Shown: positions 6,019-43,505, numbered from the stretch's first letter. The stretch is DNA of 64,000 bases from an uncultured Eubacteriales bacterium (GCA_902789675.1 CADAPG010000005.1:868-64867), one strand, 5' to 3'. Numbers and translations are program-made. The notes: generated by a model not told the origin, from the letters alone.

Positions 6019-6030
6019 GGAGGATAATCC

Positions 6031-6204: not shown

Positions 6205-6268
6205 ATAAAGGGCGTTGTAGCCCTGCAGGATTCTATTAGTGTGTAACAGATAATACGGAGACAGATTT

Positions 6269-9427: not shown

Positions 9428-9430
9428 GAA

Positions 9431-10153: not shown

Positions 10154-10214
10154 GAAATAGAGTACTAGCTTTACAAAGATACAACAGGATCACGAGAGAA
10201 GCTTGCATAGTTAA

Positions 10215-10265
10215 AAAAGGAGAAGAATCCTTGATCTACGAATACGTCACGGGGAAGAAGGAGGT
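10215..10265 (+). repeat. 51-nt leader element, copy 1 (3 mismatches to copy 2)
   Basis: aaaaggagaagaatccttgatctacgaatacgtcacggggaagaaggaggt, read directly. It ends 6 nt before GTG10272. Confidence 0.95.
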
Positions 10266-10269
10266 ATAA
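10231..10269 (+). promoter_or_regulatory. Candidate leader micro-ORF (TTG start) encoding (M)IYEYVTGKKEV, stop TAA
   Basis: AGGAG-N8-TTG. Codons 10-12 (aag gag gta) form the GGAGG Shine-Dalgarno of the 444-aa ORF. The stop lies 2 nt before GTG10272. Confidence 0.4.
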
Positions 10270-10271
10270 TT

Positions 10272-11606: not shown

Positions 11607-11618
11607 TAAGAATAAGGG

Positions 11619-12811: not shown

Positions 12812-12816
12812 TCGAC

Positions 12817-12867
12817 AAAAGGAGAAAAGTCCTTGATCTACGAATATGTCACGGGGAAGAAGGAGGT
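12817..12867 (+). repeat. 51-nt leader element, copy 2
   Basis: aaaaggagaaaagtccttgatctacgaatatgtcacggggaagaaggaggt, read directly. It ends 9 nt before ATG12877. Confidence 0.95.
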
Positions 12868-12880
12868 TGCCGATTCATGA
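12833..12880 (+). promoter_or_regulatory. Candidate leader micro-ORF copy 2, (M)IYEYVTGKKEVADS; the stop TGA overlaps ATG12877 (ATGA)
   Basis: Same AGGAG-N8-TTG and the same first 12 codons as copy 1. The only codon difference is TAC to TAT (both Tyr). Confidence 0.4.
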
Positions 12881-14073
12881 CAATAAAAGAGCTGGGCTTG
12901 TTGCTTCACGAATACGATGTGTATGATGCACTGCAGTTTATCACTGGCGCACAGAGAGCAATTCTTTCAGCTCTGTTTTGCAAGGATGTAATAGCTGGCT
13001 TACATAACGAAGTTCAAACCGTGACAGAGAAATGGGATGAAGCAATATCTGAAAAAGTAAAAGAGAACCGCGGGAAAGGTGGATGGACAGGGGTTAGCGA
13101 CTGGCCGAATTATAATGTGACAATTGCTGGTGTCGAGATCAACTCGATGTTTGTTCAGGATTTCTTGGTTAGAACTTTCTTTCAGAACGGAAGAAATGCT
13201 TTTGATATATTAGCGCAAGCGGCGAATACCGGATGCTTGGCGACGAAAGCAAAAGCAATTGAACGTGTTAATTTTCGAAGGATGAGCGAGGCTTTCCAAC
13301 AGCAGACATATCAGCAAGCTTCCCCGGAAATGAGCGAGTGGTTCAGCAGTATAGCAAATTCTGACGAATTTAAATATATTGACGCATACTGCAACAGAAC
13401 AAAGCATACGTGTTCGATACCAACGAAGTTTACGATGCCAATACTCAGTAGTGATAATACCGCGACGATACCGGCGTTTCATAAAGAAACCAATCAGTAT
13501 GATGAAAAGGATGTATTAGAACATATTCCTGCTATTTATGAATTCGTTTCAAAAGTGTACCATGATTTCATCGTAATCTTGAAGAAGGAGATAACGAAGC
13601 GTACATATACGGATAACAGGTACTATACTGTAAAGGTTTATCAGCAGAAATATCGTCAAAAGGAGGAGGAAGGTTTCTCGGCTGCGCTGATCGAAGCAAC
13701 AACAGACATAGGTTCTATGCCGGATTCCATACAGATCCTGTTTGCTAAAGCACTCAAGTATAGCGATGGCAACAAAGAGGTAATGGCGCAGAATTGTCCA
13801 TTTGATACGGTTTATATCAAAGCAAAGGATGCAACAGACGAATGCGACTTCATCGGTAAATATGTAGCGAAGGATGTCATTGTCAAGGATGCTCTTCTTC
13901 GATTCAGAACATATAAGAAAGTAATACCTGATAAAGGCGAACAACCGTTGGCTTTGCAAGCGGCGGGGGATGAGAAGCAAAAAGGGAAGTATTATCGCGC
14001 CAACCATTTCTTTGCTATAAAAACAGTCAGCGACGATGAAGCGTTTCTTAAAAAGGTAAATCTGACACTGTAA
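12877..14073 (+). CDS. Hypothetical 398-aa protein, possibly a degenerate HEPN (CNRTKH)
   Basis: Helical N-terminal half with FFQNGRNAFDILAQAAN and IDAYCNRTKHT. The N and H line up with RNSISH and RNSVLH of the two upstream proteins, but the canonical R is a C. The C-terminal ~200 aa are unassigned. Confidence 0.35.
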   Translation: MTIKELGLLLHEYDVYDALQFITGAQRAILSALFCKDVIAGLHNEVQTVTEKWDEAISEKVKENRGKGGWTGVSDWPNYNVTIAGVEINSMFVQDFLVRTFFQNGRNAFDILAQAANTGCLATKAKAIERVNFRRMSEAFQQQTYQQASPEMSEWFSSIANSDEFKYIDAYCNRTKHTCSIPTKFTMPILSSDNTATIPAFHKETNQYDEKDVLEHIPAIYEFVSKVYHDFIVILKKEITKRTYTDNRYYTVKVYQQKYRQKEEEGFSAALIEATTDIGSMPDSIQILFAKALKYSDGNKEVMAQNCPFDTVYIKAKDATDECDFIGKYVAKDVIVKDALLRFRTYKKVIPDKGEQPLALQAAGDEKQKGKYYRANHFFAIKTVSDDEAFLKKVNLTL

Positions 14074-14082
14074 GAGGGAAGA

Positions 14083-14406
14083 GTGATGGAAAAACGAGCT
14101 ACACTGGATGATAGAATCTATACTGCGATCAGGGATAAAGCGGAAGCGTGGGAAGTGGCTGAATTGTCTGCTGAAGAAACACAAGAAAAGCTTTGCGATG
14201 CCACGACGGAAGCTTTTGATAACATTATTCCCGGGGAACGGGTTGATAGGTTCGAGTATTATAAATCACATATGTATGGCTTTGGTCAACTCGTGCAAGA
14301 TGTACACGAAGGTATAATGAACGCTCCTATTGGTTCAAGCGATGAAAAGAAAATAGAACAAAATGCGCCGCAAACAGTTGTTTCCGACGAATTGCCAGAC
14401 CTTTGA
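14083..14406 (+). CDS. Small acidic hypothetical protein (107 aa; ATG14086 is an alternative start)
   Basis: GAGGGAAGAG lies upstream. The protein is rich in D/E. It starts 10 nt after the 398-aa ORF and ends 9 nt before the next ORF. Confidence 0.5.
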   Translation: MMEKRATLDDRIYTAIRDKAEAWEVAELSAEETQEKLCDATTEAFDNIIPGERVDRFEYYKSHMYGFGQLVQDVHEGIMNAPIGSSDEKKIEQNAPQTVVSDELPDL

Positions 14407-14415
14407 GGAAAGAAT

Positions 14416-15996
14416 ATGTCCGAACGTTATACTCGCTTATTTACACTTCCGGAGGGAAACCTATATGCTATCGGTTCTTCTATTATCATTTGTGCCGGAG
14501 CATTATTAAAAGACACTTTATCTGGAAACATTATCGCGCAGTTGAAGTTTCGCAACATCGGAAACAAAACAGTCTCTGCTTTGAAGGTTTCTATACGAAC
14601 GTATGATATTTTTGGAAAAGAATTAGAAGGTATAACAGAGTATCAGTATCTAGATTTAGCGGTTTTGAGGGATCAAGAATTCGGTCAGAAAACCGCTGTG
14701 GTTCTGCCAAACCCGGATACTCGTTCTTTTTGCTGTGATTGCCGTAGCATAGTATTTGCTGATGGCTCTGTTTGGGAAGCAAAAGAAGCGAATTGGTCAC
14801 CTTTGAAAAAGCAAGAATCATTACAATCTCGTTTTGGCGATCTGATAAGTCAATATCAACGTGATATAGGAGATCCGGAAGCAAGATTTGTTGCAATCGA
14901 AGACCGCGATCTTTGGCTTTGCACGTGTGGGGCAATCAACAATAGTGAGGAAAAAATCTGTCATAGTTGCAAGACAAGAATTGAGAAATTAAAAGAGGCA
15001 GAAGATATGACGCTCTTAAATGAGCATTTACAGGAGTATCTACAGAAGGAAGAACAGGCTCGTCTTGAAACTGAACGCAGAGCAGAAATCGCACGTGCGG
15101 AAGAAGCACAAAAAGCTGAAGAAGAACGAATCGCGGCAGAAAAAACGAAAAAGAGATGGAAACAAATTGTTGCGATAGTAACGCCGATCATTCTTGCTTG
15201 CATCGCTTTTGTCATAGTATTAGTCTCTTATATAATTCCTAATAAGAAATACAATTCGGCTTTAGAACTCTACAAATCCAGAAAATACGAAGAGGCAATT
15301 GCGGCATTTGAAGCAATAGCAGGATTTAAGGATAGTAAGGAGAAGATTCAAGTCATCAAGCCTTTGTACCACGATGAATTACTGAATAATGCAAGCGCTG
15401 GATCAGTAGTATTCTTCGGATGCTATGAACAGGATAATGAAGTGGCTACAGCAAATGAAGATATTGAGTGGTTAGTGCTAAAAAGAGATAACAATAGAAT
15501 CCTTTTGATCAGTAGATATGTACTTGATTGTCATCGTTTTGATTATGATATACCCGAGGGAAGCGCATCATGGGGAAATTCATCAATCAGATACTGGCTT
15601 AATAATTCCTTTTTTGAGAATGCCTTTTCAAGTGAAGAACAGGAAAGAATACAAGCGATCCCCATTGAATCAATATCTCCTGCAACTGGCTATGTTTATA
15701 CCACAACAGACAAAGTGTTCTTGTTATCAATTAGCGAAGCAAGCGATTATTTTGTAACAGACAAAGAAAGGACCTGTTTGCCTACAGATTATGCTTCTGA
15801 ACAGATTGTTGTTAATGGAGGTAAACTATACGGGGCAACATGCGAGTGGTGGTTATTGCCTTCTGATAGCGACCCAGCAGGTGTATATGCTGCAGGTGTA
15901 TTAGATGATGGTTGGATTCAACGAAGTCTTCTTAGTGACATAACATACTTTGGTGTACGACCAGTGATATGGGTTGATTTAAATAGTGAAAATTAA
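14416..15996 (+). CDS. Zn-ribbon / coiled-coil / single-TM / DUF6273-like protein
   Basis: CTCGAINNSEEKICHSCK (CxC...CxxC). Charged coiled coil EQARLETERRAEIARAEEAQKAEEERIAAEK. TM helix IVAIVTPIILACIAFVIVLVSYII. The C-terminal WWLLPS...YFGVRPVIWVDL resembles the DUF6273 pattern. Confidence 0.6.
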   Translation: MSERYTRLFTLPEGNLYAIGSSIIICAGALLKDTLSGNIIAQLKFRNIGNKTVSALKVSIRTYDIFGKELEGITEYQYLDLAVLRDQEFGQKTAVVLPNPDTRSFCCDCRSIVFADGSVWEAKEANWSPLKKQESLQSRFGDLISQYQRDIGDPEARFVAIEDRDLWLCTCGAINNSEEKICHSCKTRIEKLKEAEDMTLLNEHLQEYLQKEEQARLETERRAEIARAEEAQKAEEERIAAEKTKKRWKQIVAIVTPIILACIAFVIVLVSYIIPNKKYNSALELYKSRKYEEAIAAFEAIAGFKDSKEKIQVIKPLYHDELLNNASAGSVVFFGCYEQDNEVATANEDIEWLVLKRDNNRILLISRYVLDCHRFDYDIPEGSASWGNSSIRYWLNNSFFENAFSSEEQERIQAIPIESISPATGYVYTTTDKVFLLSISEASDYFVTDKERTCLPTDYASEQIVVNGGKLYGATCEWWLLPSDSDPAGVYAAGVLDDGWIQRSLLSDITYFGVRPVIWVDLNSEN

Positions 15997-16424
15997 ATAA
16001 TAATTCCTACATGATAACTGCAATGTTAGCATATATAAAAAGGAGGTAAACAATATGAAGATTATTAAATCCATTTTGTTGATCTCCAGCATAGCACTAT
16101 TGCTTTTGTAGCCTCTGGTGCTGCTGGGGATCGTGACAGACCCGGCTGTTGTGGCTGTGGCTTCATGGTTTAATTTCGTTGTTGATTTCGTATAGCTAGT
16201 TATTAGCATATGGGAAAAATGCATGAATAAATCGCGAAAGCCGCGCACATAATGCGTGTCCACCGGGATTCGGAACACTCCGAATCCCGGTGTTAATATA
16301 TTCATAATGATAATTGTTTAGTAATGATTATGTTTTCCAAAGCATTAACTTGGTTTGTTTTGTAAAAGTATTATGCATAAAATGTTGAAAACAACGGGCG
16401 ATGAACAGCACCTCCAAAAAGCCG

Positions 16425-16457
16425 GTGTCGTCAAAGTGTCGTCAAAGTGTCGTCAAA
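16425..16457 (+). repeat. Perfect 3 x 11-bp tandem repeat (gtgtcgtcaaa)
   Basis: Read directly. It lies 66 nt from the tRNA 3' end in the ORF-free island border. Confidence 0.9.
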
Positions 16458-16494
16458 ACCCCAAAAATGACAGTTTGCGAAAGAACCAAAAAGG

Positions 16495-16523
16495 AAAAAT
16501 GCCCTAGATTAGGGCACTTTTTT
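16495..16523 (-). terminator. Bidirectional intrinsic terminator just past the tRNA 3' end
   Basis: GCCCTA-gat-TAGGGC stem flanked by an A-run (16495-16500) and a T-run (16518-16523). Confidence 0.6.
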
Positions 16524-16598
16524 GGTTGCGGGGGCAGGACTTGAACCTGCGGCCTCCGGGTTATGAGCCCGACGAGCTACCGACTGCTCCACCCCGCG
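16523..16598 (-). tRNA. Initiator tRNA-fMet (anticodon CAT), CCA encoded
   Basis: The reverse complement is CGCGGGGTGGAGCAGTCGGTAGCTCGTCGGGCTCATAACCCGGAGGCCGCAGGTTCAAGTCCTGCCCCCGCAACCA. It folds as a cloverleaf, with the C1:A72 mismatch and the GGG/CCC anticodon stem of initiator tRNAs. It is nearly identical to E. coli tRNA-fMet as I remember it. Confidence 0.95.
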
Positions 16599-16772
16599 AT
16601 GTTGGAACTACAGTATAACAAGACGCACGGGATTTGTCAACCCCTTTTTTCGGATGGTTTTGTCGATCGGTGAAAAAGGACGGGGACAATGCTGCGGGAA
16701 TCGCGGAACAAGCCTTGCGCAAAACGGCGGGATTTGGTATAATACAGATAATTCAAACTGGGGGCATATGGA

Positions 16773-22562: not shown

Positions 22563-23783
22563 ATGAAGAAAATCATTGCATTGCTGATGGTTCTCGCAAT
22601 GGTCTTTGCGCTGGTTGCTTGCCAGACAAAGCCCGCTGAGACGGAGAAGCCGGCAGAGCAGCCCGCGGAACAGCCGGCAGAGCAGCCCGCGGAACAGCCG
22701 GCAGAGCAGCCCGCAGAGCAGCCCGCTGAGCAGCCGGAACAGCAGGCGGCGGTCGACCCCGAGTCCATCCCGGACACGATGACGAGCGCAGACGGCAAGT
22801 ATGAGATCGCGTTCGTTACCGACGTCGGTCAGCTGAAGGACAAGTCCTTCAACCAGGGCACCTGGGAAGGCTGCAAGCTCTATGCAGCTGCACACGGTCT
22901 GTCCTACAAGTACTATCAGCCCGCGAACGCCGATCAGGCGACGGACGATGACCGCTATGACGCCATGAAGGCGGCAGCGGACGGCGGTGCGAAGATCATC
23001 GTTTGCGCAGGCTTCATGCAGGCAGGCGCACTCGAGAAGGCAGCGAAGGAATTCACGGACGTCAACTTCATCTTCATCGATGGTTGGGATCTCGGTCTTC
23101 CCAATGTTGCAGGTATCGCGTATCATGAGGAGCAGGCCGGTTACCTCGCAGGCTATGCGGTAGTCATGGAAGGCTACACCAAGCTCGGCTTCTGCGGCGG
23201 CGGCGGCGGCACCAACCCGGCATGCTGCCGTTACGGCTACGGCTTCGTCCAGGGCGCAAATGCTGCGGCAGAGAAGAAGGGCATCACCGTTGACGTGAAG
23301 TACTCCTGGCAGTACGGCGCATCCTTCTCCGCATCCCCCGAACTGCAGACCATGGCAGCGGGCTGGTACGAGAGCGGCACGGAGATCATCTTCGCTTGCG
23401 GCGGTTCCATGTTCTCCTCGATCGCAGCAGCAGCTGCTGAGAACGATGCGAAGGTCGTCGGCGTTGACGTTGACCAGTCTCCGGAATCCGACACCGTTGT
23501 TACCTCCGCGATGAAGGGTCTGTCTGCATCCGTGCAGTGGGCAATTGCGAAGAACTATGACGGCGCATGGACCGAGATCGGCGGCAACGGCACCGGCACG
23601 ATGCTGGGCGCTGAGAACGATGCAGTCGGTCTGCCGACCGCAACCTGGAGCCTCAAGAACTGGAGCGTTGAAGAGTATGAAGCTCTGTTCGCCGCAATGA
23701 AGGACGGTTCGCTCGTCGTCGACGCGAACTTCCCGGCGGATCACGTCTTCACGTTCTCCAATGCGAATGTTGAAGTTATCTGA
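22563..23783 (+). CDS. BMP-family (PnrA/Med-like) ABC transporter substrate-binding lipoprotein, copy 1
   Basis: Signal peptide with lipobox LVAC. AGGAGG lies upstream of ATG22563. A (PAEQ)x7 linker precedes the BMP-like body. Confidence 0.85.
   Translation: MKKIIALLMVLAMVFALVACQTKPAETEKPAEQPAEQPAEQPAEQPAEQPAEQPAEQPEQQAAVDPESIPDTMTSADGKYEIAFVTDVGQLKDKSFNQGTWEGCKLYAAAHGLSYKYYQPANADQATDDDRYDAMKAAADGGAKIIVCAGFMQAGALEKAAKEFTDVNFIFIDGWDLGLPNVAGIAYHEEQAGYLAGYAVVMEGYTKLGFCGGGGGTNPACCRYGYGFVQGANAAAEKKGITVDVKYSWQYGASFSASPELQTMAAGWYESGTEIIFACGGSMFSSIAAAAAENDAKVVGVDVDQSPESDTVVTSAMKGLSASVQWAIAKNYDGAWTEIGGNGTGTMLGAENDAVGLPTATWSLKNWSVEEYEALFAAMKDGSLVVDANFPADHVFTFSNANVEVI
22650..22733 (+). repeat. In-frame 12-nt tandem repeat x7 encoding (PAEQ)7
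   Basis: Read directly from ccg gca gag cag / ccc gcg gaa cag units and the translation. Confidence 0.9.
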
Positions 23784-35199: not shown

Positions 35200-36153
35200 A
35201 TGTGGGAATTCTTGGTATCATTCATCCCGAGAGCGGTCATGCAGGGCATGCCGCTGCTATACGGCAGTACCGGTGAGATCCTCACGGAGAAGGCGGGCAA
35301 CCTGAACCTCGGTATTCCGGGCATCATGTATGTCGGCGCGATCTCCGGCGTCATCGGCGCGTTCTTCTATGAGCAGGCAACGATCGGCGCGGGGCAGCCG
35401 ATGGTCGGCATCCTTGCGGTGCTGATCCCGATGCTCTGCTGTCTTCTCGGCTCGTTCCTGATGGGGCTTCTCTATTGCTTCCTGACCGTTACGCTGCGCG
35501 CGAACCAGAACGTCACCGGTCTTGCCATGACGATGTTCGGCGTCGGCTTCGGCAACTTCTTCGGCGGCTCCCTGATCAAGCTGGCGCACAGCGAGGTCCC
35601 GAGCCTGACGTTTGCCGCGACCTGCAACTTCTTCGGCGACGGCAAGCATCCGGGCTGGCTTGCGTATCTCGGCATCGTCATTGCGATCCTTGCCTCGCTG
35701 TTTTTGCGGTACACCCGCAAGGGCATGCAGCTGCGCGCGGTCGGCGAGAATCCGGCGACTGCGGATGCGGCGGGCATCAACGTGACGCGGTACAAGTACG
35801 TTGCAACGCTCGTCGGCAGCATGATCGCGGGGCTCGGCGGACTCTACTACGTCATGGAGTGCGCGCATGGCACGTGGGCGAACGAGGGCTTCGGCGACCG
35901 TGGCTGGCTGGCGATTGCGCTGGTCATCTTCACGACATGGCGTCCGAGCGTCAGCATCTTTGCGTCGATCCTGTTCGGCGGGCTCATCATCCTGTCCGAG
36001 CATCTGTCGCTTCCGCTCGGCATCAAGGAGCTCTATAAGCTCGCGCCGTACGTGGTCACGCTGCTGGTGCTCATCATCGTCTCGCTGCGCAAGAAGCGCG
36101 AGAATCAGCCGCCGCAGAGCCTCGGGCTTGCGTACTTCCGCGAAGAGCGGTAA
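35200..36153 (+). CDS. ABC transporter permease, copy 2b
   Basis: Starts at MWEFLVSFIPRAVMQG (ATG35200), 6 nt after permease 2a. The ORF-track extension to 34882 was rejected. Confidence 0.85.
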   Translation: MWEFLVSFIPRAVMQGMPLLYGSTGEILTEKAGNLNLGIPGIMYVGAISGVIGAFFYEQATIGAGQPMVGILAVLIPMLCCLLGSFLMGLLYCFLTVTLRANQNVTGLAMTMFGVGFGNFFGGSLIKLAHSEVPSLTFAATCNFFGDGKHPGWLAYLGIVIAILASLFLRYTRKGMQLRAVGENPATADAAGINVTRYKYVATLVGSMIAGLGGLYYVMECAHGTWANEGFGDRGWLAIALVIFTTWRPSVSIFASILFGGLIILSEHLSLPLGIKELYKLAPYVVTLLVLIIVSLRKKRENQPPQSLGLAYFREER

Positions 36154-36174
36154 AATCCTTGCAACTGCATACGG

Positions 36175-36205
36175 GCACAGCTCTTTTCGGGGCTGTGCTT
36201 TTTTT
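36175..36205 (+). terminator. Intrinsic terminator after ABC operon 2
   Basis: GCACAGC ... GCTGTGC followed by T7. Confidence 0.7.
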
Positions 36206-36223
36206 GATTCCGGGAGAATACGC

Positions 36224-36252
36224 TTGACAGATTCGGTCTATCGTGATAAACT
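36224..36252 (+). promoter_or_regulatory. Candidate promoter TTGACA-N17-TAAACT for blaI/blaR1
   Basis: Perfect -35 box, 17-nt spacer, 4/6 match at -10. It lies 42 nt upstream of ATG36294. Confidence 0.45.
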
Positions 36253-36293
36253 GCACATGAGGTCTATTTGAATAAACCAAAGGAGAAGCATGT

Positions 36294-36656
36294 ATGGAAA
36301 TCGAATTGGGCGCCGTACAGGAACGCTTTGCCGATCTCATCTGGGAAAGGGAACCGATCGACTCGGGGGAGCTTGTCAAGCTCTGCGCCGAACGCTTTGA
36401 ATGGAAAAAATCCACCACGTATACCGTTCTTCGAAAGCTCTGTGAGAAGGGGCTGTTTGTGAACGAAAACGGTACGGTTCGCGCCTGCATGCAGCGGGAC
36501 GCGTTCTATGCGAAGCGCAGCAAACAGATCGTTGCGGATTCGTTCAGGGGATCGCTGCCCGCGTTCTTCGCTGCGTTCCTGTCCGATCGCGGGCTTTCGG
36601 AAAACGAGGCGGAGGAGATCCGGACCATGATCGACGCGTATCGGAAAGGGGAATGA
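36294..36656 (+). CDS. blaI: BlaI/MecI/CopY-family transcriptional repressor
   Basis: 120-aa winged-helix protein (KKSTTYTVLRKLCEKGL). Translationally coupled to an M56 peptidase gene. Confidence 0.8.
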   Translation: MEIELGAVQERFADLIWEREPIDSGELVKLCAERFEWKKSTTYTVLRKLCEKGLFVNENGTVRACMQRDAFYAKRSKQIVADSFRGSLPAFFAAFLSDRGLSENEAEEIRTMIDAYRKGE

Positions 36657-38947
36657 CGATGGAAGCCGCCTTTTTGAAGATTCTGAACATGAGCCTTTCG
36701 GCAAGCATCCTGATTCTTGTCGTGCTGCTTGTGCGGCTGCTGCTGTTTCGCGCGCCGAAGTGGGTGCGCGGCGTCCTTTGGGCGATCGTCGCGGTGCGGC
36801 TCGTGCTGCCGTTTTCCATCGAGAGCATTTTCAGCCTGATCCCAGCGGCGGAACCGATCCCGAACAACATCGCCTTGATGGAGCATCCCGCGGTGGAAAC
36901 GGGCATTCCGATCGTGAACCGGTCGGTCAATCCGGTGATCGAACGGCAGTTTGCGCCGAACCCGGCAAACAGCATCAATCCGCTGCAGGTCGTGACGTAC
37001 GCTGCGGCGATCATTTGGATCGCAGGCGTTTGCGGCATGCTGCTCTTTCTGTTTCTGAGCTGCCTCCGTGCCAAAAACAGCGTCCGCGCGTCGGTTCCGA
37101 ACGGGAGCGGCGTTTATCTCTGCGACGAGATCCGTTCTCCGTTCATCCTCGGCATGTTCCGCCCGCGCATCTATCTGCCGTCGGATCTTGAGGGGACGAC
37201 GCGCGAAAGCGTTCTGATGCACGAGCGCGCGCATCTGCGCCGCCGCGATCATTGGTGGAAGCCGCTCGGGTTTCTGATCCTTGCGGTGCATTGGTTCAAT
37301 CCGCTTTGCTGGCTTGCCTACATCCTGTTTTGCCGGGACATTGAATCCGCGTGTGACGAGAAAGCGATCGCGCAGATGGATCGCGAAGGCCGCGCCGCCT
37401 ATTCGCAGGCGCTTCTGGATTGCAGCCGCCCGCAGCGCGTCGTTTCGGTCTGTCCGCTTGCATTCGGAGAAAACGGCGTCAAAAGCCGCGTGAAGTCGGT
37501 TCTGCACTACAAGAAGCCGCTTCTGTGGATCTTCATCGCGGCGATCCTCGTATCCGTGATCGTTGCGGTATGCTTCCTGACGAACCCGAAGGCAAAGCGC
37601 GAAGCGGAGAGGCAGGCGGCGGAAACACAGACGGCTGCAGCCGAAACGCCTTCTTTGTCAAATGCGCCGGAGTCTGCCGAGCCTGCGCCGACGCCGTGGG
37701 CGGGGGACGGACATTGGTACACGTTTCAGCTTACCGCGCCGGGACTGATCAGCTCGATCGGAACAGAGTATCTCTATGTTCCGGAGGGATACACGGTATG
37801 TCCGATCAACAGCGTCGCGATCGGGAAGCTGAAGGGTATGCGCAGTGAGACCAAGGTCTATACCGCCGATCCGGAGGAACGCGTGATCTGGTTCGAATCC
37901 TGGTTTTCGTATTACCGGTCCGGGCTGGCGCTGCCGAAACCGGATCCCAAAACCTGCAATTACGCAATCAGTGTTTATCATGCCGATTCGGAATCTTGGA
38001 TGTATCTTTCGGAAGAAGCAGGCAAAGAGCTGCATACTCTTTTGAACAGGCTCGATACGGAGGGCGAAAAAGCGAAGATCTCAGAGTTCGATAAGACGGC
38101 GAATGTTTACCAAACGGTCCCGGAGATTCCGGGTCTGCTGCATGACACAAGACTGCTTCTCGCTCGACGCAACGGAGATGCATTTTTGTATGCGGGAAAA
38201 ACGAGGGCGTATACCAAAGAAGGAACCGCAATCAAAATGAATGCGGACAGCGCTTTGTTCCGCGAGTTTGCCGCGGCGCTCGACGTCAGAACGACGCCGG
38301 TTCCGCTTCCCGCATTCACGGAAATCGACGGCGGCATTACGGACGGCACGAACAACTATTATGACGCGCCGCCGCACTGGCATCTGTTTTTTGACGAGAG
38401 AGAGTTGAGCTTCGAGGAGACGATCGGCGAGATCAAGATCAAGGACGATGCGGAGAGCGATGCGCATATAGAATCTGTCCGGTCGTTTGCAAAGGCAAAC
38501 CGGTTTTTGAAAATATGGGATAAGCGGTATCCGTATCAAGACAGAACATTGATCCGCGAGGGGGAAGCTCTGCGGGATCCGTTTGGGGATGGATTTTCCG
38601 TCTATCTGCTGAATGACAATAAGAACGTAGACCTTCCGCTGTCCGAGGAGGCGAGCGCAGAGCTTTGCGAACGGTACAAGGCGGCAGAGAACGGAACGGC
38701 GGATGCAGTGACGCCGATCGACGAAAATGCAGAGGAATACGGCACGCTGATCCTCAGGAACATCCGGTATGACAGCATACTGTGCTATGAGTTCGCCGGG
38801 ATCCGCATCCTGGGCGAAACGATCTGGCTCAGCACCATGGACACCGGTCTCATCACGGAGATCCCGAAAGATACGGCGGCATATACCGAATTGATGGAGA
38901 TCTACAAAAACAACAAGCTGCCGCAGGGCGTGTTTGTTCTTCACTGA
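36653..38947 (+). CDS. BlaR1-like M56 peptidase/sensor with an uncharacterised ~450-aa extracytoplasmic C-terminal region
   Basis: N-terminal TM helices and the Zn motif MHERAHLRRRDHWWK. The C-terminal region shows no PBP motif triad that I can see. Confidence 0.8.
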   Translation: MTMEAAFLKILNMSLSASILILVVLLVRLLLFRAPKWVRGVLWAIVAVRLVLPFSIESIFSLIPAAEPIPNNIALMEHPAVETGIPIVNRSVNPVIERQFAPNPANSINPLQVVTYAAAIIWIAGVCGMLLFLFLSCLRAKNSVRASVPNGSGVYLCDEIRSPFILGMFRPRIYLPSDLEGTTRESVLMHERAHLRRRDHWWKPLGFLILAVHWFNPLCWLAYILFCRDIESACDEKAIAQMDREGRAAYSQALLDCSRPQRVVSVCPLAFGENGVKSRVKSVLHYKKPLLWIFIAAILVSVIVAVCFLTNPKAKREAERQAAETQTAAAETPSLSNAPESAEPAPTPWAGDGHWYTFQLTAPGLISSIGTEYLYVPEGYTVCPINSVAIGKLKGMRSETKVYTADPEERVIWFESWFSYYRSGLALPKPDPKTCNYAISVYHADSESWMYLSEEAGKELHTLLNRLDTEGEKAKISEFDKTANVYQTVPEIPGLLHDTRLLLARRNGDAFLYAGKTRAYTKEGTAIKMNADSALFREFAAALDVRTTPVPLPAFTEIDGGITDGTNNYYDAPPHWHLFFDERELSFEETIGEIKIKDDAESDAHIESVRSFAKANRFLKIWDKRYPYQDRTLIREGEALRDPFGDGFSVYLLNDNKNVDLPLSEEASAELCERYKAAENGTADAVTPIDENAEEYGTLILRNIRYDSILCYEFAGIRILGETIWLSTMDTGLITEIPKDTAAYTELMEIYKNNKLPQGVFVLH

Positions 38948-38960
38948 TGCGCACGGTGTA

Positions 38961-39017
38961 AAGCGCGGAATCGCCCGCAGAGTCTCGGGCTTGCGTATTT
39001 TTTGCGAAGAGCGGTAA
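38961..39017 (+). repeat. Decayed, non-coding duplicate of the last ~19 codons plus stop of permease 2b (36094-36153)
   Basis: The blocks cgcagag[t]ctcgggcttgcgta and gcgaagagcggtaa are shared in the same order. Indels break the frame. Confidence 0.85.
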
Positions 39018-39031
39018 GAGAATGACGCATG

Positions 39032-39058
39032 GGACCGTCCTTTCGGGCGGTCCTTTTT
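39032..39058 (+). terminator. Intrinsic terminator after the relic and the blaR1-like gene
   Basis: GGACCG ... CGGTCC followed by T5. Confidence 0.6.
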
Positions 39059-39127
39059 CCTGCCGAAAATACCGAAAAAGTTCACAATTCAAAAAAAGGG
39101 TTTTGGCAAAAAACGTCGTATTTATTG

Positions 39128-39334
39128 TAATTACATAGATATAATTACATAGATATAATTACATAGATATAATTACATAGATATAATTACATAGATATAA
39201 TTACATAGATTTAATTACATAGATTTAATTACATAGATTTAATTACATGGATATAATTACATGGATATAATTACATGGATTTTATTACATCAATGTAATT
39301 ACATAGAATGAAATCAAATGAATGTAATTACAGG
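39128..39334 (+). repeat. 13 tandem copies of a 14-bp AT-rich unit (TAATTACATAGATA and variants) plus one detached partial copy
   Basis: Units were counted base by base. There are 5x ...atagata, 3x ...atagatt, 2x ...atggata and 1x ...atggatt, then 2 degenerate units. A 15-nt spacer follows, then taattacagg. The 10-bp palindrome TGTAATTACA occurs at 39126, 39293 and 39322. Confidence 0.95.
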
Positions 39335-39341
39335 TATTTAC

Positions 39342-39377
39342 AAAACGCCTCCCCGAAAAAAGCAGGGGAGGCGTTTT
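39342..39377. terminator. Bidirectional intrinsic terminator, serving the ade operon on the minus strand
   Basis: 13-bp stem AAAACGCCTCCCC / GGGGAGGCGTTTT. It begins 4 nt beyond the minus-strand stop at 39381-39383. Confidence 0.85.
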
Positions 39378-39380
39378 CTT

Positions 39381-39971
39381 TCAGTTCTGAAAATTGCTCA
39401 GCGATTCGCCGTTCAGCCAGCGGACAAGCTCGGGCGGCGTGTCGGGCACGTTGACGGTCGTGAAGGTCGTGCGCTTCGGCACCATGCTTTCGGGGTCGTC
39501 GCTTTCCGCCCAGATGAGTCGCTGCAGGACCTTCTTTTCACAGCCGACCGCGCCCGCTTCGGGGAGCTCCTCGATCTGCAAAAGGATCGAAGCATGCTTC
39601 TGATCGGAGCTCCAGCGCCCGAAATTCGTCGTCGGACGCTTCCAGAGCCATTGCATCCGCTTGCCGCCGTCCTCGACCTTTTTGCGCTTCAGGTAGCCGT
39701 TGTGGATGTCCTGCGTGCAGCGCATCAGCCAGATGACGTGGTAGCCCGCTTTCTGAAACAGCTCGCACACGTCGAAGAACGTCGCCTGCATCAAAAGCCC
39801 ATCCTGCAGCATCATGGCGTTGTGTCCGACGAGCACATAGGCGATGTGCGTCACGCCGTCGACGGTCACGGGGACGTTGCGGCATTCCGGCGGGAACAGC
39901 TCCTGCCACTGCGACCGCCAGACCTCATGCATAGACTGCGTAAACGGTTGTTTTTTACGGAACAGACACAT
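39381..39971 (-). CDS. Hypothetical protein, possibly an inactivated CoiA-like/PD-(D/E)xK-type fold (very tentative)
   Basis: Start chosen at MCLFRKK (AAGAGG 8 nt upstream). THIAYVLVGHNAMMLQDG...FQKAGYHVIWLM loosely recalls the HIADV...IEFQHS...Y..G..VIWL pattern, but with the acidic residues replaced. Confidence 0.5.
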   Translation of the reverse strand: MCLFRKKQPFTQSMHEVWRSQWQELFPPECRNVPVTVDGVTHIAYVLVGHNAMMLQDGLLMQATFFDVCELFQKAGYHVIWLMRCTQDIHNGYLKRKKVEDGGKRMQWLWKRPTTNFGRWSSDQKHASILLQIEELPEAGAVGCEKKVLQRLIWAESDDPESMVPKRTTFTTVNVPDTPPELVRWLNGESLSNFQN

Positions 39972-40064: not shown

Positions 40065-41795
40065 TCAATCCGTCGAATCCGGCGACATGTGCGGCGAATT
40101 GTACAAAAACGACATCGTCCGCACGTCGAACAGTCCGCAGTCGGTCAGACGCACCTCCGGGATGACCGGCAGGGCAAGGAAGGACAGCAGAACGAGCGGG
40201 TCGCAGGCGTCGTCCGCGCCGAGCGCTTTTGCGGCGCACAGCAGCTCGCGCTGCTTTTCGAGCACGGTCTCCACCGGCGCGTCGCTCATCAGCCCTGCGA
40301 CGGGCAGCTCCAGAAGCGCCTTCACTTCGCCGTTCGAGACGACCGTGAACCCGCCGCCGCACGCCTTCAGCGCTTCCACGGCGCAGATCATATCGCCGTC
40401 GTTGTCGCCGACGACCACGATGTTGTGCGAATCGTGCGCGACGGTCGCCGCGATCGCGCCGCCGCGGATGTGCATGCCGTCGACGATGCCGACGCCGATG
40501 TTGCCGGTGGCGTGATGCCGCTCGATGACGGCAAGCTTGTTCAGCACGTCGTCCGCGACGAAGTATCCGTTCTCGTCGGTCGGCACGGTGCCGGAGACGA
40601 GCCGCGTCACGAGCTGGTGCGGAACGGTCTCGATGATCGGCATGAAGGCTTTTGCTTTCAGCCGGAGGTCGTCCGGCGTGACCGGCGCGGCGTGGACGCT
40701 GTTTTTCACGCTCTCGGGAACCGCGGGGGAGGGGATCGGCGCGTTCGGGTCGATGCGGACCCCGTTTGCAAAGACCGCCTTCGGTTCGATCGTGTGCAGG
40801 TCGTCGAACAGGATAAAGTTCGCGCGGTATCCCGGAGCGACCGCGCCGACGCGGCGAAGACCGTACGCCCTTGCCGTATTCAGCGTCGCCATGCGGATCG
40901 CGTCGAGCGGACGAATCCCGCGGGAGATCGCGGTGTTGACGATGTGGTTGATGTGTCCCTCGGTGCGGATGTTCTCAAGATGCTTGTCGTCGGTGCAGAA
41001 GCAGATCCGGTCGGTGGGAAGCCCCTCCGAAACGATCCCGTCGAGCATCTCCCGGACGCCGTTTGCCGCCGAGCCCATGCGGATCAGAATGTACATGCCG
41101 TTGCGCAGCTTTTCTTTGAGCTCCGGGAAGTTCGAGCATTCGTGATCGGTCATCGGTCCCGCCAGACAGTAGGCGTTCAGCGCGCGTCCGGTGAGCATCG
41201 GCGCGTGACCGTCGATCGGACGGTCGAAAAAGCATTGCAGCTTAAAGATCATCTCCGGCGCGCACGACACGACCGAGGGATAATCCATCACTTCGCCGAG
41301 CCCGACCACGCTCGGTTCGTCCATGAACACGGCAAGGTCCTTTGCGGAAAGCGAAGCGCCGCTGTGCTCGAACGGCGTTGCGGGAACGCAGGAGGGCAGC
41401 ATGAAGTGGATGTCCAGCGGCAGGTTCTCGGAAAGCGCCATGATCGCTTTGAGCCCCTCCTTGCCCGCGACGTTTGCGATCTCGTGCGGGTCGGCGACGA
41501 TCGAGGTCGTGCCCTTCGGCAGGATCACCTGCGCAAAAGAAGCGGGCGTGACCATCGAGCTTTCGATGTGTACATGCCCGTCGATGAACCCCGGCGCAAG
41601 GTACGCGCCGTGGGCGTTGTATTCGTTTTCGCACGAGTAGTTTCCGACGCCGATGACCGTGTCGCCTGCGATCGCGACGTTCGTGTGCATGATCTCGTTG
41701 GTAAAGACGTTGATCACGCGCGCATCCCGGATGACAAGGTCCGGTTTGCCTTTGCGCGCGGCGGTGATCAGCCGGGGAAGATCGCCTGCGTTCAT
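40065..41795 (-). CDS. ade: Adenine deaminase
   Basis: The N-terminus LVIRDARVINVFTNEIMHTNVAIAGDTVIGVG and the metal-binding FIDGHVHIESSMV are typical of Ade. Start MNAGDLPRL at 41795; the upstream extension was rejected. Confidence 0.9.
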   Translation of the reverse strand: MNAGDLPRLITAARKGKPDLVIRDARVINVFTNEIMHTNVAIAGDTVIGVGNYSCENEYNAHGAYLAPGFIDGHVHIESSMVTPASFAQVILPKGTTSIVADPHEIANVAGKEGLKAIMALSENLPLDIHFMLPSCVPATPFEHSGASLSAKDLAVFMDEPSVVGLGEVMDYPSVVSCAPEMIFKLQCFFDRPIDGHAPMLTGRALNAYCLAGPMTDHECSNFPELKEKLRNGMYILIRMGSAANGVREMLDGIVSEGLPTDRICFCTDDKHLENIRTEGHINHIVNTAISRGIRPLDAIRMATLNTARAYGLRRVGAVAPGYRANFILFDDLHTIEPKAVFANGVRIDPNAPIPSPAVPESVKNSVHAAPVTPDDLRLKAKAFMPIIETVPHQLVTRLVSGTVPTDENGYFVADDVLNKLAVIERHHATGNIGVGIVDGMHIRGGAIAATVAHDSHNIVVVGDNDGDMICAVEALKACGGGFTVVSNGEVKALLELPVAGLMSDAPVETVLEKQRELLCAAKALGADDACDPLVLLSFLALPVIPEVRLTDCGLFDVRTMSFLYNSPHMSPDSTD

Positions 41796-41862
41796 GGGAA
41801 CGGATGCACCTCGTTTCGTATATTTTTTACAGTATACCACGATTTGCACCCGAAGACAATCG

Positions 41863-42255
41863 CTAAAGCAAAGAATTCCACGAAAAAAGTTCGATCCCCT
41901 CGATGCGGACGAGGATGGAGCGCGCCTCGGCAAGCGCTTCCGCCGCCGCGCCCGTGTCATCCGCCCGCGCGGCGCAGTCCGCAACGGCTGCCGCCGCGTC
42001 GAGCGCGTCGATGCTTGCATGGTTCAGAAACCGTTCCAGCACCGGCATCCGATCGCGCACAAGGGTTTTGAGCGCGGCGCAGTGCGCGCGCGCCGCTTCG
42101 GGATCGCCGCCGAGCAGCGCGGTCTCGGCGTCGCCGATCAGGGCGTCCGCTTCCTCGGAAAACCGCCGGAGGATCGCCGAGGGAAGCAGAAACAGCAGCA
42201 CCAGAAACGCGCAGATCAGCAGCGTCACGGTCGTGCGAAAGATCGTAAAGCCCAT
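41863..42255 (-). CDS. DUF4363-like small membrane-anchored protein
   Basis: N-terminal TM helix followed by an Ala-rich helical domain. AAGGAG lies upstream of ATG42255. Paired with a DUF421 gene, as is commonly seen. Confidence 0.5.
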   Translation of the reverse strand: MGFTIFRTTVTLLICAFLVLLFLLPSAILRRFSEEADALIGDAETALLGGDPEAARAHCAALKTLVRDRMPVLERFLNHASIDALDAAAAVADCAARADDTGAAAEALAEARSILVRIEGIELFSWNSLL

Positions 42256-43008: not shown

Positions 43009-43169
43009 AGCCTGTCCGAAAACGCCCTGCGGCATACGCGGGAGTTGACGTATCAAAAATAATGATATATACTATTTAAAACCGGTAAGAGGAAAAAAAG
43101 GTTTTCCGTCGAATATATCAGTAAGAGGGAGAGATTGAGATGAGATCTCCCGAACGGATGGAGGTATCT

Positions 43170-43505
43170 ATGCTGTTTTCATCGGAAAGCGCCGCAGGCC
43201 TTGATTTCACGGGAGGCGCCGCGGCAACATCGACGCTGATCACGTTCCTTCTGGGCCTCGGCATCGTCTTCATCGGACTGATCGCGCTGATCCTGATCAT
43301 CAAGGTGATGGGAGCGATCATGCGCGCATCCGGAAAGAAAAAGACAAAAGCCGTTCCGCCGGTCGAGGCGGAGAAGCCCGCAGCCGTTCCCGTTCCGGAG
43401 GGCGACATGGGCGAGATCAAGGCGGCCGTCGCTGCCGTCATTGCAACCATGCTGGGCGAAAGCGTCAGCGGGATCCGGATCGTATCGTTCAAAAAAGTGG
43501 ATTAA
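43170..43505 (+). CDS. oadG: OadG-family small membrane subunit of a Na+-translocating decarboxylase
   Basis: Single TM helix LITFLLGLGIVFIGLIALILIIKVMG, first gene of the decarboxylase operon. GGAGG lies 5 nt upstream of ATG43170; ATG43140 is an alternative start. Confidence 0.6.
   Translation: MLFSSESAAGLDFTGGAAATSTLITFLLGLGIVFIGLIALILIIKVMGAIMRASGKKKTKAVPPVEAEKPAAVPVPEGDMGEIKAAVAAVIATMLGESVSGIRIVSFKKVD

What the first reader, a model, noticed from the sequence alone, without database searches (positions are those of the whole stretch)
39126..39334. Thirteen tandem 14-bp AT-rich units between convergent terminators in a GC-rich genome
TAATTACATAGATA is repeated head-to-tail 13 times (39128-39309). 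The variants are ordered in blocks: 5x ...atagata, 3x ...atagatt, 3x ...atgga(t/a), then 2 decayed units. That pattern implies stepwise local amplification. A 14-nt period cannot be coding. The 10-bp palindrome TGTAATTACA marks the start (39126), the 12/13 junction (39293) and a detached partial unit (39322).

Seven unit junctions create perfect TATAAT hexamers. Each is preceded at 18 nt by ATTACA (4/6 match to TTGACA), all on the plus strand. The bidirectional terminator at 39342-39377 follows. The locus could therefore emit about 100-230-nt repeat-containing RNAs ending at a terminator shared with the convergent ade-operon mRNA.

Other readings:
- an iteron or operator array, since ATTACAT resembles the TACA half-site of BlaI/MecI operators and a blaI gene lies 2.5 kb upstream
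- a sink for RNA polymerase or nucleoid proteins
- a hypervariable VNTR
Basis: seen in the sequence. Interest (0 to 1): 0.65.

Follow-up and report, generated by a model that had tools for sequence, protein, structure and literature searches.

The report
Variable AT-rich repeat with promoter-like module
The 13-copy, 14-bp AT-rich tandem repeat is real; it is the fast-changing part of a small family of intergenic elements in uncultured gut Clostridia, each joined to a conserved promoter-like sequence, it has nothing to do with the neighbouring BlaI repressor, and its function is unproven.

Summary
Thirteen head-to-tail 14-bp units lie at 39128-39309, with variants in blocks, between two terminator hairpins.

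The array is one half of a composite element. On its left sits a conserved ~62-bp module (39061-39122). The same module-plus-array pair occurs at three or more unrelated loci in a 97%-identical MAG, and at orthologous loci in sister species.

The module is conserved, but the array turns over fast:
- 13 versus 9 units between near-identical genomes.
- 4 to about 10 copies of a different 18-bp unit among ten strains of a sister species.
- Other unit types, or an empty site, elsewhere.

Within the window's lineage, 11 of 14 unit positions are nearly invariant at three loci, and three positions are free.

The module has promoter anatomy (AGGRWWT-N13/14-CG(T/A)AT, closest to sigma-H) and always points into the array.

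blaI-blaR1 is a lineage-specific 2.86-kb insertion, and the family operator TACANNTGTA is absent. The TATAAT hexamers depend on a free position.

Best reading: a hypervariable minisatellite, probably transcribed from the module promoter. Nothing shows what it does. It most resembles pneumococcal BOX elements.

The parts
39031..39054 (+). Intrinsic terminator ending the upstream transcription unit (the blaR1-like gene and the duplicated 3' remnant of the permease gene). It is the left boundary of the intergenic element.
   Evidence: The terminator scan finds a 10-pair stem followed by a T-run. An orthologous hairpin follows the permease gene in L026, L121, L123 and L141-150.
39061..39122 (+). 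Conserved module. It contains the invariant block TTCACA (39081-39086) and an A7 tract (39091-39097). It also has a -35-like AGGGTTT (39097-39103), a 13-nt spacer of variable sequence, and a -10-like CGTAT (39117-39121). It points into the array.
   Evidence: An nhmmer profile built from 9 module copies hits 39061-39122 at E = 8.5e-15 and nothing else in the window. The alignment shows conserved blocks separated by a variable spacer of fixed length. All versions fit AGGRWWT-N13/14-CG(T/A)AT. No consensus RNA structure is predicted on either strand.
39126..39309 (+). The array: a TGTAATTACA start followed by 13 head-to-tail 14-bp units (39128-39309). The variants lie in blocks.
   Evidence: The unit logo comes from 49 units at 3 non-homologous loci: positions 1-9 (TAATTACAT) and 12-13 (AT) are nearly invariant, and positions 10, 11 and 14 are free.
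39310..39337 (+). Degenerate spacer (GAAATCAAATGAA) followed by a detached TGTAATTACA unit at 39323-39332. The same layout (isolated unit, odd spacer of about 20 nt, then the regular array) closes the arrays in L040 and L104.
39342..39377 (.). GC-rich hairpin with 13 pairs and a 10-nt loop, an A-run before it and a T-run after it. It is a bidirectional terminator shared with the convergent 196-aa gene and ade operon, and it is the right boundary of the element.
   Evidence: Sequence and folds. A hairpin of different sequence closes every related element.
39381..39971 (-). Convergent 196-aa conserved hypothetical gene, the last gene of the adenine deaminase operon. It serves as the anchor for the orthologous loci. 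It is not evidently linked to the array.
   Evidence: Homologues are 196 aa long. It has no Pfam or NCBIfam match. The AlphaFold2 model has pLDDT 81.5 with no PDB fold match. The gene is also present at loci that lack the element.
36154..39017 (+). The blaI-blaR1 insertion (blaI 36294-36656, blaR1-like 36653-38947). It is bounded by a ~55-bp direct duplication of the permease gene's 3' end (36100-36153 and 38963-39017). It is not part of the element.
   Evidence: It is absent from L026, L121, L123 and L141-150, where the permease gene abuts the module directly.

Best explanation
The array is the variable half of a lineage-restricted composite intergenic element.

The constant half is a ~62-bp module (39061-39122). 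It has the anatomy of an alternative-sigma promoter: -35 AGGRWWT, a 13-14-nt spacer of free sequence, and -10 CG(T/A)AT. This is closest to the sigma-H consensus. The module always points into an AT-rich minisatellite that begins 5-45 nt downstream and ends at a GC-rich hairpin.

Shown:
- The minisatellite expands, contracts and replaces its unit very fast, presumably by slipped-strand mispairing or unequal exchange.
- The module persists while the array changes.
- The element is multi-copy per genome and is present or absent at orthologous sites.
- In this lineage the 12-mer ATnTAATTACAT is under sequence constraint at three loci.

Inferred:
- The module fires in stationary or transition phase and makes a ~250-nt non-coding repeat RNA, from about 39127 to about 39380 on the + strand.
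- The constrained 12-mer is recognised by some partner, either a protein or a complementary RNA.

No downstream function is demonstrated.
For: 1. The module accompanies every TAATTACAT array found. These are the window, its ortholog L026, two further contigs of the same MAG (L040, L104), and L117/L119.
2. The module is kept at orthologous loci whose arrays use other units:
   - L121: ATAATAGCTATTCTT.
   - L123: TAATTACACTGTCATTCT.
   - L141-150: AACCTGTTTATTATAAGT.
   - L118/L120: TAATTAGAT-like.
3. The module alignment shows two conserved blocks separated by a spacer of constant length and free sequence, with no consensus RNA fold. That is promoter-like conservation.
4. All 9 module versions fit AGGRWWT-N13/14-CG(T/A)AT. 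The published sigma-H motif is AGGAATT-N14-CGAAT (PMC6849360). The sister-species version scores 12/12 and most others 11/12. Only one site in the whole window scores 11/12 or better. That site is a conserved candidate promoter in front of the oxaloacetate decarboxylase operon.
5. The orientation is constant: the module always faces the array, and a hairpin always closes the array. In the window, L117 and L123 the hairpin has a T-run in that direction.
6. VNTR behaviour:
   - 13 versus 9 units, with flanks 97.2% identical over 3.9 kb.
   - Five array alleles of 4 to about 10 units among ten strains with an identical flanking protein. Each allele or near-allele was recovered twice from independent samples.
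7. Constraint: 49 units (24 distinct) at 3 non-homologous loci are almost invariant at 11 positions. All four bases occur at positions 10, 11 and 14.
Against: - There are no expression data.
- The window's own module scores only 10/12 against sigma-H. Thirty-six sites in the window score that well.
- The -10 reads CGTAT, not CGAAT, in 8 of 9 versions.
- I tried several sigma consensus sequences by eye before this one fitted.
- The distal hairpin lacks a good T-run in the promoter direction in L026, L104, L121 and L141-150.
- The asymmetric 9-mer core lies on opposite strands relative to the module at locus A versus loci B and C. The RNAs would therefore not share a sequence.
- Complete unit turnover between close species argues against a conserved sequence-specific role.
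- Copy numbers come from short-read metagenome assemblies.
Confidence: 0.45

Rival explanations
1. The array is a neutral minisatellite inside a decaying interspersed repeat of the MITE or BOX type. The module is conserved only through recent common ancestry or some unrelated local role. The array is slippage-prone junk with no function.
For: - The element is present or absent at both orthologous loci. Empty sites are L127-129 and L140, and other inserts occupy L125, L131 and L132-139.
- Units are fully replaced between close species.
- Copy number is polymorphic.
- Other MITE-like repeats occupy the same intergenic spaces.
- No gene association is shared by the three loci.
Against: - Variation within units is highly non-uniform. 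Eleven positions are nearly fixed and three are saturated, across 24 distinct unit variants at three loci. Neutral decay does not predict this.
- The module is conserved as two blocks with a free spacer, not uniformly.
- No terminal inverted repeats or target-site duplications were seen.
- The same core occurs in both orientations relative to the module, so the loci are not simple copies of one ancestor.
Confidence: 0.3
2. The array is a double-stranded DNA binding platform (operator-, iteron- or centromere-like). A dimeric sequence-specific protein, not BlaI, occupies the quasi-palindromic 12-mer ATnTAATTACAT every 14 bp. The A-tract module acts as a bend or nucleation site.
For: - The 12-mer is constrained and is followed by a free 2-bp spacer.
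- The core is a quasi-palindrome, and the whole array is 70-78% self-complementary.
- The core is used in either orientation relative to the module, as expected for recognition of duplex DNA.
- L121 carries 8 or more ATAGCTAT palindromes at irregular spacing rather than a strict tandem array.
- The module contains A-tracts.
Against: - No rep, par or regulator gene lies next to any copy.
- There is no match in phage, plasmid or viral collections.
- Only one of the two symmetric positions of the palindrome is conserved.
- The sister-species 18-mer is not palindromic.
- A partner protein would have to change specificity repeatedly between close species.
Confidence: 0.15
3. One reading: the unit junctions form six or seven tandem sigma-70 promoters (ATTACA-18-TATAAT) that fire nested RNAs of about 100-230 nt.
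For: Six sites score 10/12 on the + strand, against 1.9 expected. A terminator lies downstream.
Against: - TATAAT requires an A at unit position 14, which is A, T, G or C almost at random in related arrays. It is TTTAAT or TGTAAT in many units.
- The -35 matches only 4/6, and the 18-nt spacer is suboptimal.
- Arrays at loci B and C are inverted.
- Sister species use unrelated units.
Confidence: 0.06
4. The array is a set of BlaI/MecI-type operators bound by the BlaI-like repressor encoded 2.5 kb upstream.
For: ATTACAT resembles a TACA half-site. A blaI gene is nearby.
Against: - TACANNTGTA (PMC1935004, PMC7253601) is absent from the array. The array has only the everted TGTA-AT-TACA and a single TACA-N4-TGTA.
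- The blaI promoter region has no such motif.
- blaI-blaR1 is an insertion flanked by a duplication.
- Orthologous elements exist without it.
- The array lies 3' of blaR1 and beyond its terminator.
Confidence: 0.02

Closest known systems
Pneumococcal BOX elements, boxA-(boxB)n-boxC (PMC3049150)
   Same: Both are small, multi-copy intergenic composite repeats in Firmicutes. Both have a conserved module joined to a tandem array whose copy number varies between strains. Both are often found after genes, show presence/absence polymorphism, and are thought to be transcribed and to influence neighbouring genes.
   Different: - Here there is a conserved module on one side only.
- No terminal inverted repeats or target duplications were seen.
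- The units are 14-18 bp, not 45 bp.
- The unit sequence itself is replaced between close species.
- The module looks like a promoter rather than a stem-forming end.
- There is no sequence similarity.
Bacterial VNTR or MLVA loci (intergenic minisatellites, e.g. those used for typing; PMC1315331 lists such loci)
   Same: Both are head-to-tail short units with variants in blocks. Copy number is polymorphic between strains. Both are non-coding, AT-rich and prone to slippage.
   Different: An ordinary VNTR is a single locus. Here the same unit recurs at three or more loci, always beside the same conserved module, and within-unit variation is confined to 3 of 14 positions.
Sigma-H (Spo0H) promoters of Firmicutes, AGGAATT-N14-CGAAT (PMC6849360)
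   Same: The module has a -35 AGGATTT, AGGAAAT or AGGGTTT, a 13-14-nt spacer of free sequence, and a -10 CG(T/A)AT. The region after it, where transcription would start, is AT-rich.
   Different: The -10 is CGTAT in most copies. An extra invariant TTCACA block lies about 10 nt upstream of the -35. Dependence on sigma-H is untested.
Centromere or iteron arrays of Firmicute plasmids (omega-protein heptad arrays of pSM19035, parC/ParR, tubC/TubR). This comparison is from my own knowledge and was not tested here.
   Same: Both are contiguous short repeats with a conserved core, in direct or inverted orientation. The 14-bp unit equals two 7-bp half-units. Unit sequence diverges fast between relatives while the layout is kept.
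   Different: The element is chromosomal, has no adjacent par, rep or regulator gene, has no plasmid or phage match, and sits at several loci between housekeeping genes.
BlaI/MecI/CopY operators, TACANNTGTA (PMC1935004, PMC7253601)
   Same: Both share TACA and TGTA tetranucleotides and an AT-rich context.
   Different: The arrangement is everted (TGTA-AT-TACA) or spaced by 4. The units are direct repeats rather than one or two dyads at a promoter. There is no conserved linkage to blaI.

Membership tests
VNTR / minisatellite | Head-to-tail copies of one short unit without spacers | tested here: met
   Period 14, 12.9 copies, 93% matches. The units are in exact register.
VNTR / minisatellite | Copy number or variant order differs between closely related genomes | tested here: met
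   The window has 13 units and L026 has 9, with flanks 97.2% identical. A sister species has 4 to about 10 copies among 10 strains with an identical neighbouring protein, and alleles were recovered twice independently. Caveat: these are short-read assemblies.
BlaI/MecI/CopY operator | TACANNTGTA dyad (PMC1935004, PMC7253601) | tested here: not met
   The window has two matches, at 3649 and 27295. Neither is in the array or near blaI.
BlaI/MecI/CopY operator | Located at the promoter of a regulated gene and genetically linked to the repressor | tested here: not met
   The array lies 3' of blaR1, beyond a terminator. blaI-blaR1 is an insertion that is absent from orthologous elements.
BlaI/MecI/CopY operator | Binding by the repressor | not testable with these tools
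   This needs an EMSA or DAP-seq.
Sigma-70 promoter (inside the units) | -35 and -10 hexamers at 16-18 nt | tested here: met
   Six sites score 10/12 with an 18-nt spacer and a 4/6 -35.
Sigma-70 promoter (inside the units) | Hexamers conserved in related copies | tested here: not met
   TATAAT depends on unit position 14, which has 0.27 bits of information. Arrays at other loci are inverted.
Sigma-H-type promoter (the module) | AGGAWWT, 13-14 nt, (C)GAAT (PMC6849360) | tested here: inconclusive
   The window scores 10/12, which is not rare (36 such sites). Other copies score 11/12 and the sister species scores 12/12. The -10 is CGTAT in 8 of 9 versions.
Sigma-H-type promoter (the module) | Two conserved blocks with a spacer of fixed length and free sequence, in constant orientation to the transcribed part | tested here: met
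   Alignments. The module always faces the array.
Sigma-H-type promoter (the module) | Transcription start and dependence on the sigma factor | not testable with these tools
   No transcriptome is available for this uncultured organism.
Iteron / centromere-like binding array | Contiguous repeats with a conserved recognition core | tested here: met
   Eleven of 14 positions are nearly invariant over 24 distinct units at 3 loci.
Iteron / centromere-like binding array | Adjacent rep, par or regulator gene, or location on a plasmid or phage | tested here: not met
   The neighbours are housekeeping or unknown genes. There is no match in the viral, plasmid or phage collections.
BOX-like / MITE-like interspersed composite repeat | Several copies per genome at unrelated loci | tested here: met
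   Three contigs of MAG JAZNHI01 (L026, L040, L104) carry the element.
BOX-like / MITE-like interspersed composite repeat | Conserved module(s) plus a variable number of tandem internal units | tested here: met
   There is a module on one side only.
BOX-like / MITE-like interspersed composite repeat | Terminal inverted repeats and target-site duplication | tested here: not met
   None is visible at the element boundaries in the window, L040 or L104. This was judged by inspection only.
BOX-like / MITE-like interspersed composite repeat | Presence/absence polymorphism at orthologous sites | tested here: met
   Locus A is empty in L127-129. Locus B is empty in L140 and L135-139.
CRISPR array | Repeats separated by unique spacers | tested here: not met
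   The units abut with no spacers. There is no Rfam CRISPR hit above noise.
Any Rfam RNA family | Covariance-model match | tested here: not met
   The gathering-threshold scan finds only a tRNA at 16526-16598. The permissive scan of 38900-39450 gives only chance-level hits with E of 0.6 or more.

The most novel reading that the evidence does not exclude
The module-plus-array elements could be a new family of alternative-sigma-driven tandem-repeat RNA genes (or a co-evolving recognition platform) that evolve in concert within a genome. The conserved core lies on opposite strands relative to the promoter at locus A versus loci B and C. The predicted RNAs (…AUnUAAUUACAU… and …AUGUAAUUAnAU…) would therefore be mutually complementary, and could pair in trans into long duplexes. 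Selection for mutual complementarity, rather than for any fixed sequence, would explain two things at once: 11 of 14 positions are fixed within a lineage, yet the unit is replaced wholesale between lineages.
Probability: 0.08. Interest if true: 0.75.

Novelty: new variant of a known kind. Interest (0 to 1): 0.4.

Why it matters
If the module is an active stationary-phase promoter, these elements would be a previously undescribed class of repeat-containing non-coding RNA genes in uncultured ruminant-gut Clostridia. Their fast turnover would make them a natural system for studying how a repeat and its partner co-evolve.

Even on the neutral reading they are useful. They are strain-level markers (a VNTR) for a clade known only from metagenomes. 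They also show that terminator-flanked spacers between convergent genes are preferred landing and expansion sites for several unrelated small repeats.

The result also removes a tempting but wrong link between the array and beta-lactam sensing.

Tried and rejected
- **Over-loose genome scan.** The genome-contig scan used a pattern that was too loose (ATTACAT-N7 x3). Only L026, L040, L104 and L117 were relevant.
- **Metagenome scan.** Scanning with the module pattern gave only 3 loci.
- **Mobile-element collections.** Viral contigs (array and module patterns), plasmids and phages gave no match.
- **Rfam.** Neither the gathering nor the permissive threshold found anything.
- **Literature.** A search for the motif strings found only primers.
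- **Structured RNA in the module.** RNAalifold predicted no pairs on either strand. The 11-13-bp inverted repeat GAATTGTGAAA...TTTCACAATTC exists only at loci B and C.
- **Folding of the array.** The strongly negative z-scores (-6.3 on the + strand, -9.3 on the - strand) follow from the quasi-palindromic unit and are not evidence of function.
- **Sigma-70 promoter in the module.** I looked in both directions by eye and found no conserved hexamer pair. I also considered and dropped sigma-54, ECF, sigma-D, sigma-B and the sporulation sigma consensus sequences.
- **Operator motifs recalled from memory.** Rex, CRP, LacI-like, PurBox, CodY, Fur/Zur, dif and DnaA-box motifs showed only partial resemblances. 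None was tested further.
- **Terminal inverted repeats and target duplications.** None was seen.
- **A shared gene theme.** Locus A is adenine deaminase plus a nucleoside-type ABC permease and locus B is ssnA, both purine-related. Locus C lies between an LRR/caspase surface protein and a YARHG protein. There is no consistent theme.
- **The adjacent 196-aa protein as the binding partner.** It has no family or fold match, it occurs at loci without arrays, and it is absent from loci B and C.

Full report
**1. The observation**

The array is real and is the strongest tandem repeat in the window. Tandem Repeats Finder reports 39128-39307, period 14, 12.9 copies, 93% matches, score 283.

In exact register the units are:
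- 5 x TAATTACATAGATA
- 3 x TAATTACATAGATT
- 2 x TAATTACATGGATA
- 1 x TAATTACATGGATT
- TTATTACATCAATG
- TAATTACATAGAAT

A degenerate 14 nt follows, then a detached GTAATTACAG. The unit with up to 2 mismatches occurs 14 times, against 0.03 expected.

There are seven TATAAT hexamers, and six of them have ATTACA 18 nt upstream.

No frame is open. The flanks are about 60% GC.

- blaI at 36294-36656.
- A blaR1-like M56 gene at 36653-38947.
- A terminator at 39031-39054.
- The array.
- A 13-pair hairpin at 39342-39377, with an A-run before it and a T-run after it.
- The convergent 196-aa gene at 39381-39971 (-).
- Adenine deaminase at 40065-42020 (-).

**2. The array is half of a composite element**

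A loose pattern scan of one genome per species returned mostly unrelated repeats. Four loci carried the same TAATTACAT-N5 repeat.
- L026 is the ortholog of the window locus. Its flanks are 97.2% identical over 3.9 kb.
- L040 and L104 are two other contigs of the same MAG (JAZNHI01).
- L117 is an ortholog of L104 in another MAG.

In all of them the array abuts the same conserved sequence on one side: ATACGACG-N7-SCAAAAYCCTTTTTTTGAATTGTGAA, read on the window's minus strand.

An nhmmer profile of this module hits 39061-39122 in the window and nothing else in the 64 kb.

The element therefore occupies at least three unrelated loci in one genome:
- Locus A lies between the ade operon and a nucleoside-type ABC permease.
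- Locus B lies upstream of ssnA.
- Locus C lies between an LRR/caspase protein and a YARHG protein.

Every copy has the same layout: module, regular array, an odd spacer of about 20 nt, an isolated TGTAATTA unit, and then a GC-rich hairpin whose sequence differs by locus.

**3. The module persists while the array turns over**

I fetched loci through relatives of the 196-aa protein and of SsnA. At locus A:

| Locus | Identity of the 196-aa protein to the window's | What sits beside the module |
|---|---|---|
| L121 | 89% | Module kept; ATAATAGCTATTCTT repeats and 8 or more ATAGCTAT palindromes at irregular spacing |
| L123/L124 | 81% | Module kept; TGTAATTACA x2 and TAATTACACTGTCATTCT x2 |
| L141-L150 (ten strains) | identical to each other | Module kept; 18-bp unit AACCTGTTT(C/A)TTATAA(C/G)(T/C) |

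The ten L141-L150 strains carry five array alleles of 4 to about 10 copies. Each allele, or a near-identical one, was recovered from two independent samples.

At locus B, L118/L120 encode an SsnA about 96% identical to that of L117/L119. Yet their arrays have changed to TAATTAGAT-like units.

Other relatives have an empty site or different inserts:
- L127-129 have a single bidirectional terminator.
- L140 has a short plain spacer.
- L125, L131 and L132-139 carry other inserts.
- In L122 a different gene follows directly and there is no element.

Between the window and L026 the array differs in copy number (13 versus 9) and in variant composition. The VNTR reading is therefore demonstrated, with the caveat that these are short-read metagenome assemblies.

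**4. Constraint inside the unit**

I pooled 49 units (24 distinct) from the window, L026, L040, L104 and L117. Positions 1-9 (TAATTACAT) and 12-13 (AT) are nearly invariant. Positions 10, 11 and 14 carry all four bases, with 0.27-0.42 bits of information.

Selecting units on the 9-mer core biases positions 1-9 somewhat. However, the arrays are contiguous in register, and positions 12-13 were not selected on.

The recognisable element is the 12-mer ATnTAATTACAT plus a 2-bp spacer. It is a quasi-palindrome in which only one of the two symmetric positions is fixed.

On the module strand, the window and L026 carry ATGTAATTA (12 and 8 copies). L040, L104 and L117 carry TAATTACAT (7, 8 and 9 copies). 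The core is therefore inverted relative to the module between locus A and loci B and C.

Neutral decay does not predict this pattern. It points to recognition of the repeat, as duplex DNA or through complementarity. The wholesale unit replacement in sister species nevertheless shows that no particular sequence is required in the long run.

**5. What the module looks like**

RNAalifold finds no shared structure on either strand. Conservation is at the level of primary sequence.

Read on the window + strand, the conserved blocks are:
- TTCACA (39081-39086).
- AAAAAAAGG(G/A)TTT.
- A stretch of 13-14 nt with free sequence but fixed length.
- CGTCG(T/A)AT.

That is promoter-like. All nine versions fit AGGRWWT-N13/14-CG(T/A)AT. 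This pattern occurs once in the window, against 0.07 expected.

The published Bacillus sigma-H motif is AGGAATT-N14-CGAAT (PMC6849360). Against it:
- The sister-species module (AGGAAAT-N14-CGAAT) scores 12/12.
- Most other versions score 11/12.
- The window version (AGGGTTT-N13-CGTAT, 39097-39121) scores 10/12.

A 10/12 score is not rare, with 36 such sites in the window. A score of 11/12 or better occurs only once. That single site (43090, AGGAAAA-N13-CGAAT) lies in front of the oxaloacetate decarboxylase operon, and it is conserved in L123. The promoter class therefore plausibly exists in this clade.

The module always faces the array, which starts 5-45 nt after the -10. In the window a transcript would start near 39127 and end at the 39342-39377 terminator, giving about 250 nt.

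Weak points:
- I reached sigma-H after trying other consensus sequences by eye.
- The -10 is CGTAT in most copies.
- The distal hairpin lacks a T-run in that direction in L026, L104, L121 and L141-150.
- There are no expression data.

**6.

*Internal sigma-70 promoters.* The hexamers exist, but TATAAT needs an A at the free position 14. Related arrays are also inverted or use unrelated units. Selection is therefore not maintaining these promoters.

*BlaI operator.* The family operator is TACANNTGTA (PMC1935004, PMC7253601).
- It is absent from the array and from the blaI promoter region.
- The array offers only the everted TGTA-AT-TACA and one TACA-N4-TGTA.
- blaI-blaR1 is a 2863-bp insertion bounded by a ~55-bp duplication of the permease 3' end.
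- L026, L121, L123 and L141-150 have the element but no blaI or blaR1 next to it.

*Iteron or centromere.* The repeat architecture fits. However, no rep, par or regulator gene is adjacent at any locus, and no plasmid, phage or viral match exists.

**7. Verdict**

Shown:
- A hypervariable AT-rich minisatellite is coupled to a conserved ~62-bp module.
- The element is multi-copy and restricted to a narrow clade of uncultured Clostridia. The sample and MAG names suggest a ruminant-gut origin.
- Unit positions are constrained within the lineage.

Inferred:
- The module is an alternative-sigma promoter that transcribes the array (about 0.45).
- The repeat is recognised by a partner.

Rivals are a neutral BOX- or MITE-like repeat (0.3) and a duplex-DNA binding platform (0.15).

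The closest described architecture is the pneumococcal BOX element, a conserved end plus a variable tandem boxB array (PMC3049150). This element differs from it in having one module only, no terminal inverted repeats, much shorter units, unit replacement between species, and a promoter-like module.

It is a new variant of a known kind and of moderate interest. It would become more interesting if a transcript, or concerted evolution of the arrays, is confirmed.

Noticed in passing
window 692-16600: A low-GC island (36-47% GC against about 60% in the flanks) carries a type I restriction-modification system: HsdM at 692-2272, RhuM at 2269-3291, HsdS at 3935-5224 and HsdR at 6269-9427. It also carries a YgjP-like peptidase, a HEPN-like protein and a DUF6273 protein. 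It ends at a tRNA gene (16526-16598, -), next to a perfect 3 x 11-bp repeat GTGTCGTCAAA at 16425-16457. It looks like a defence island inserted at a tRNA.
   Followed up: partly
window 36100-39017: blaI-blaR1 is a 2863-bp insertion flanked by a ~55-bp direct duplication of the 3' end of the ABC permease gene (36100-36153 and 38963-39017). The 97%-identical relative L026 lacks it.
   Followed up: yes
L026 240-400; L132-L134 upstream of ssnA (about 1700-2300): A different, GC-richer hairpin repeat (GTCATTCTGA...GGATGACA, MITE-like) occupies the same kind of intergenic space. In L026 it sits between two copies of the permease terminator. Upstream of ssnA it is present in 2 versus 3 copies in strains with an identical SsnA.
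   Followed up: no
L131 3600-3830: At locus A this relative has an unrelated insert of about 200 bp, flanked by two copies of the terminator hairpin AGGACCGTCCGAAGACGGTCCCC. This suggests insertion into, or duplication of, the terminator.
   Followed up: no
window 39381-39971 (-): The 196-aa protein in the adenine deaminase operon is widely conserved in Clostridia, with 379 hits. It has no Pfam, NCBIfam or PDB sequence match. It gives a confident AlphaFold2 model (pLDDT 81.5, pTM 0.80) that has no significant fold match in the PDB.
   Followed up: partly
window 43046-43170; L123 980-1075 (-): Upstream of the oxaloacetate decarboxylase operon there is a sigma-70-like TTGACG-N17-TATATA. It is followed by the window's best sigma-H-like site (AGGAAAA-N13-CGAAT at 43090). 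Both are conserved in L123.
   Followed up: partly
window 22644-22750: GC-rich repeats of 12 and 24 bp (GAGCAGCCGGCA, 8.9 copies). The period is a multiple of three, so they probably encode a repeat inside a protein.
   Followed up: no
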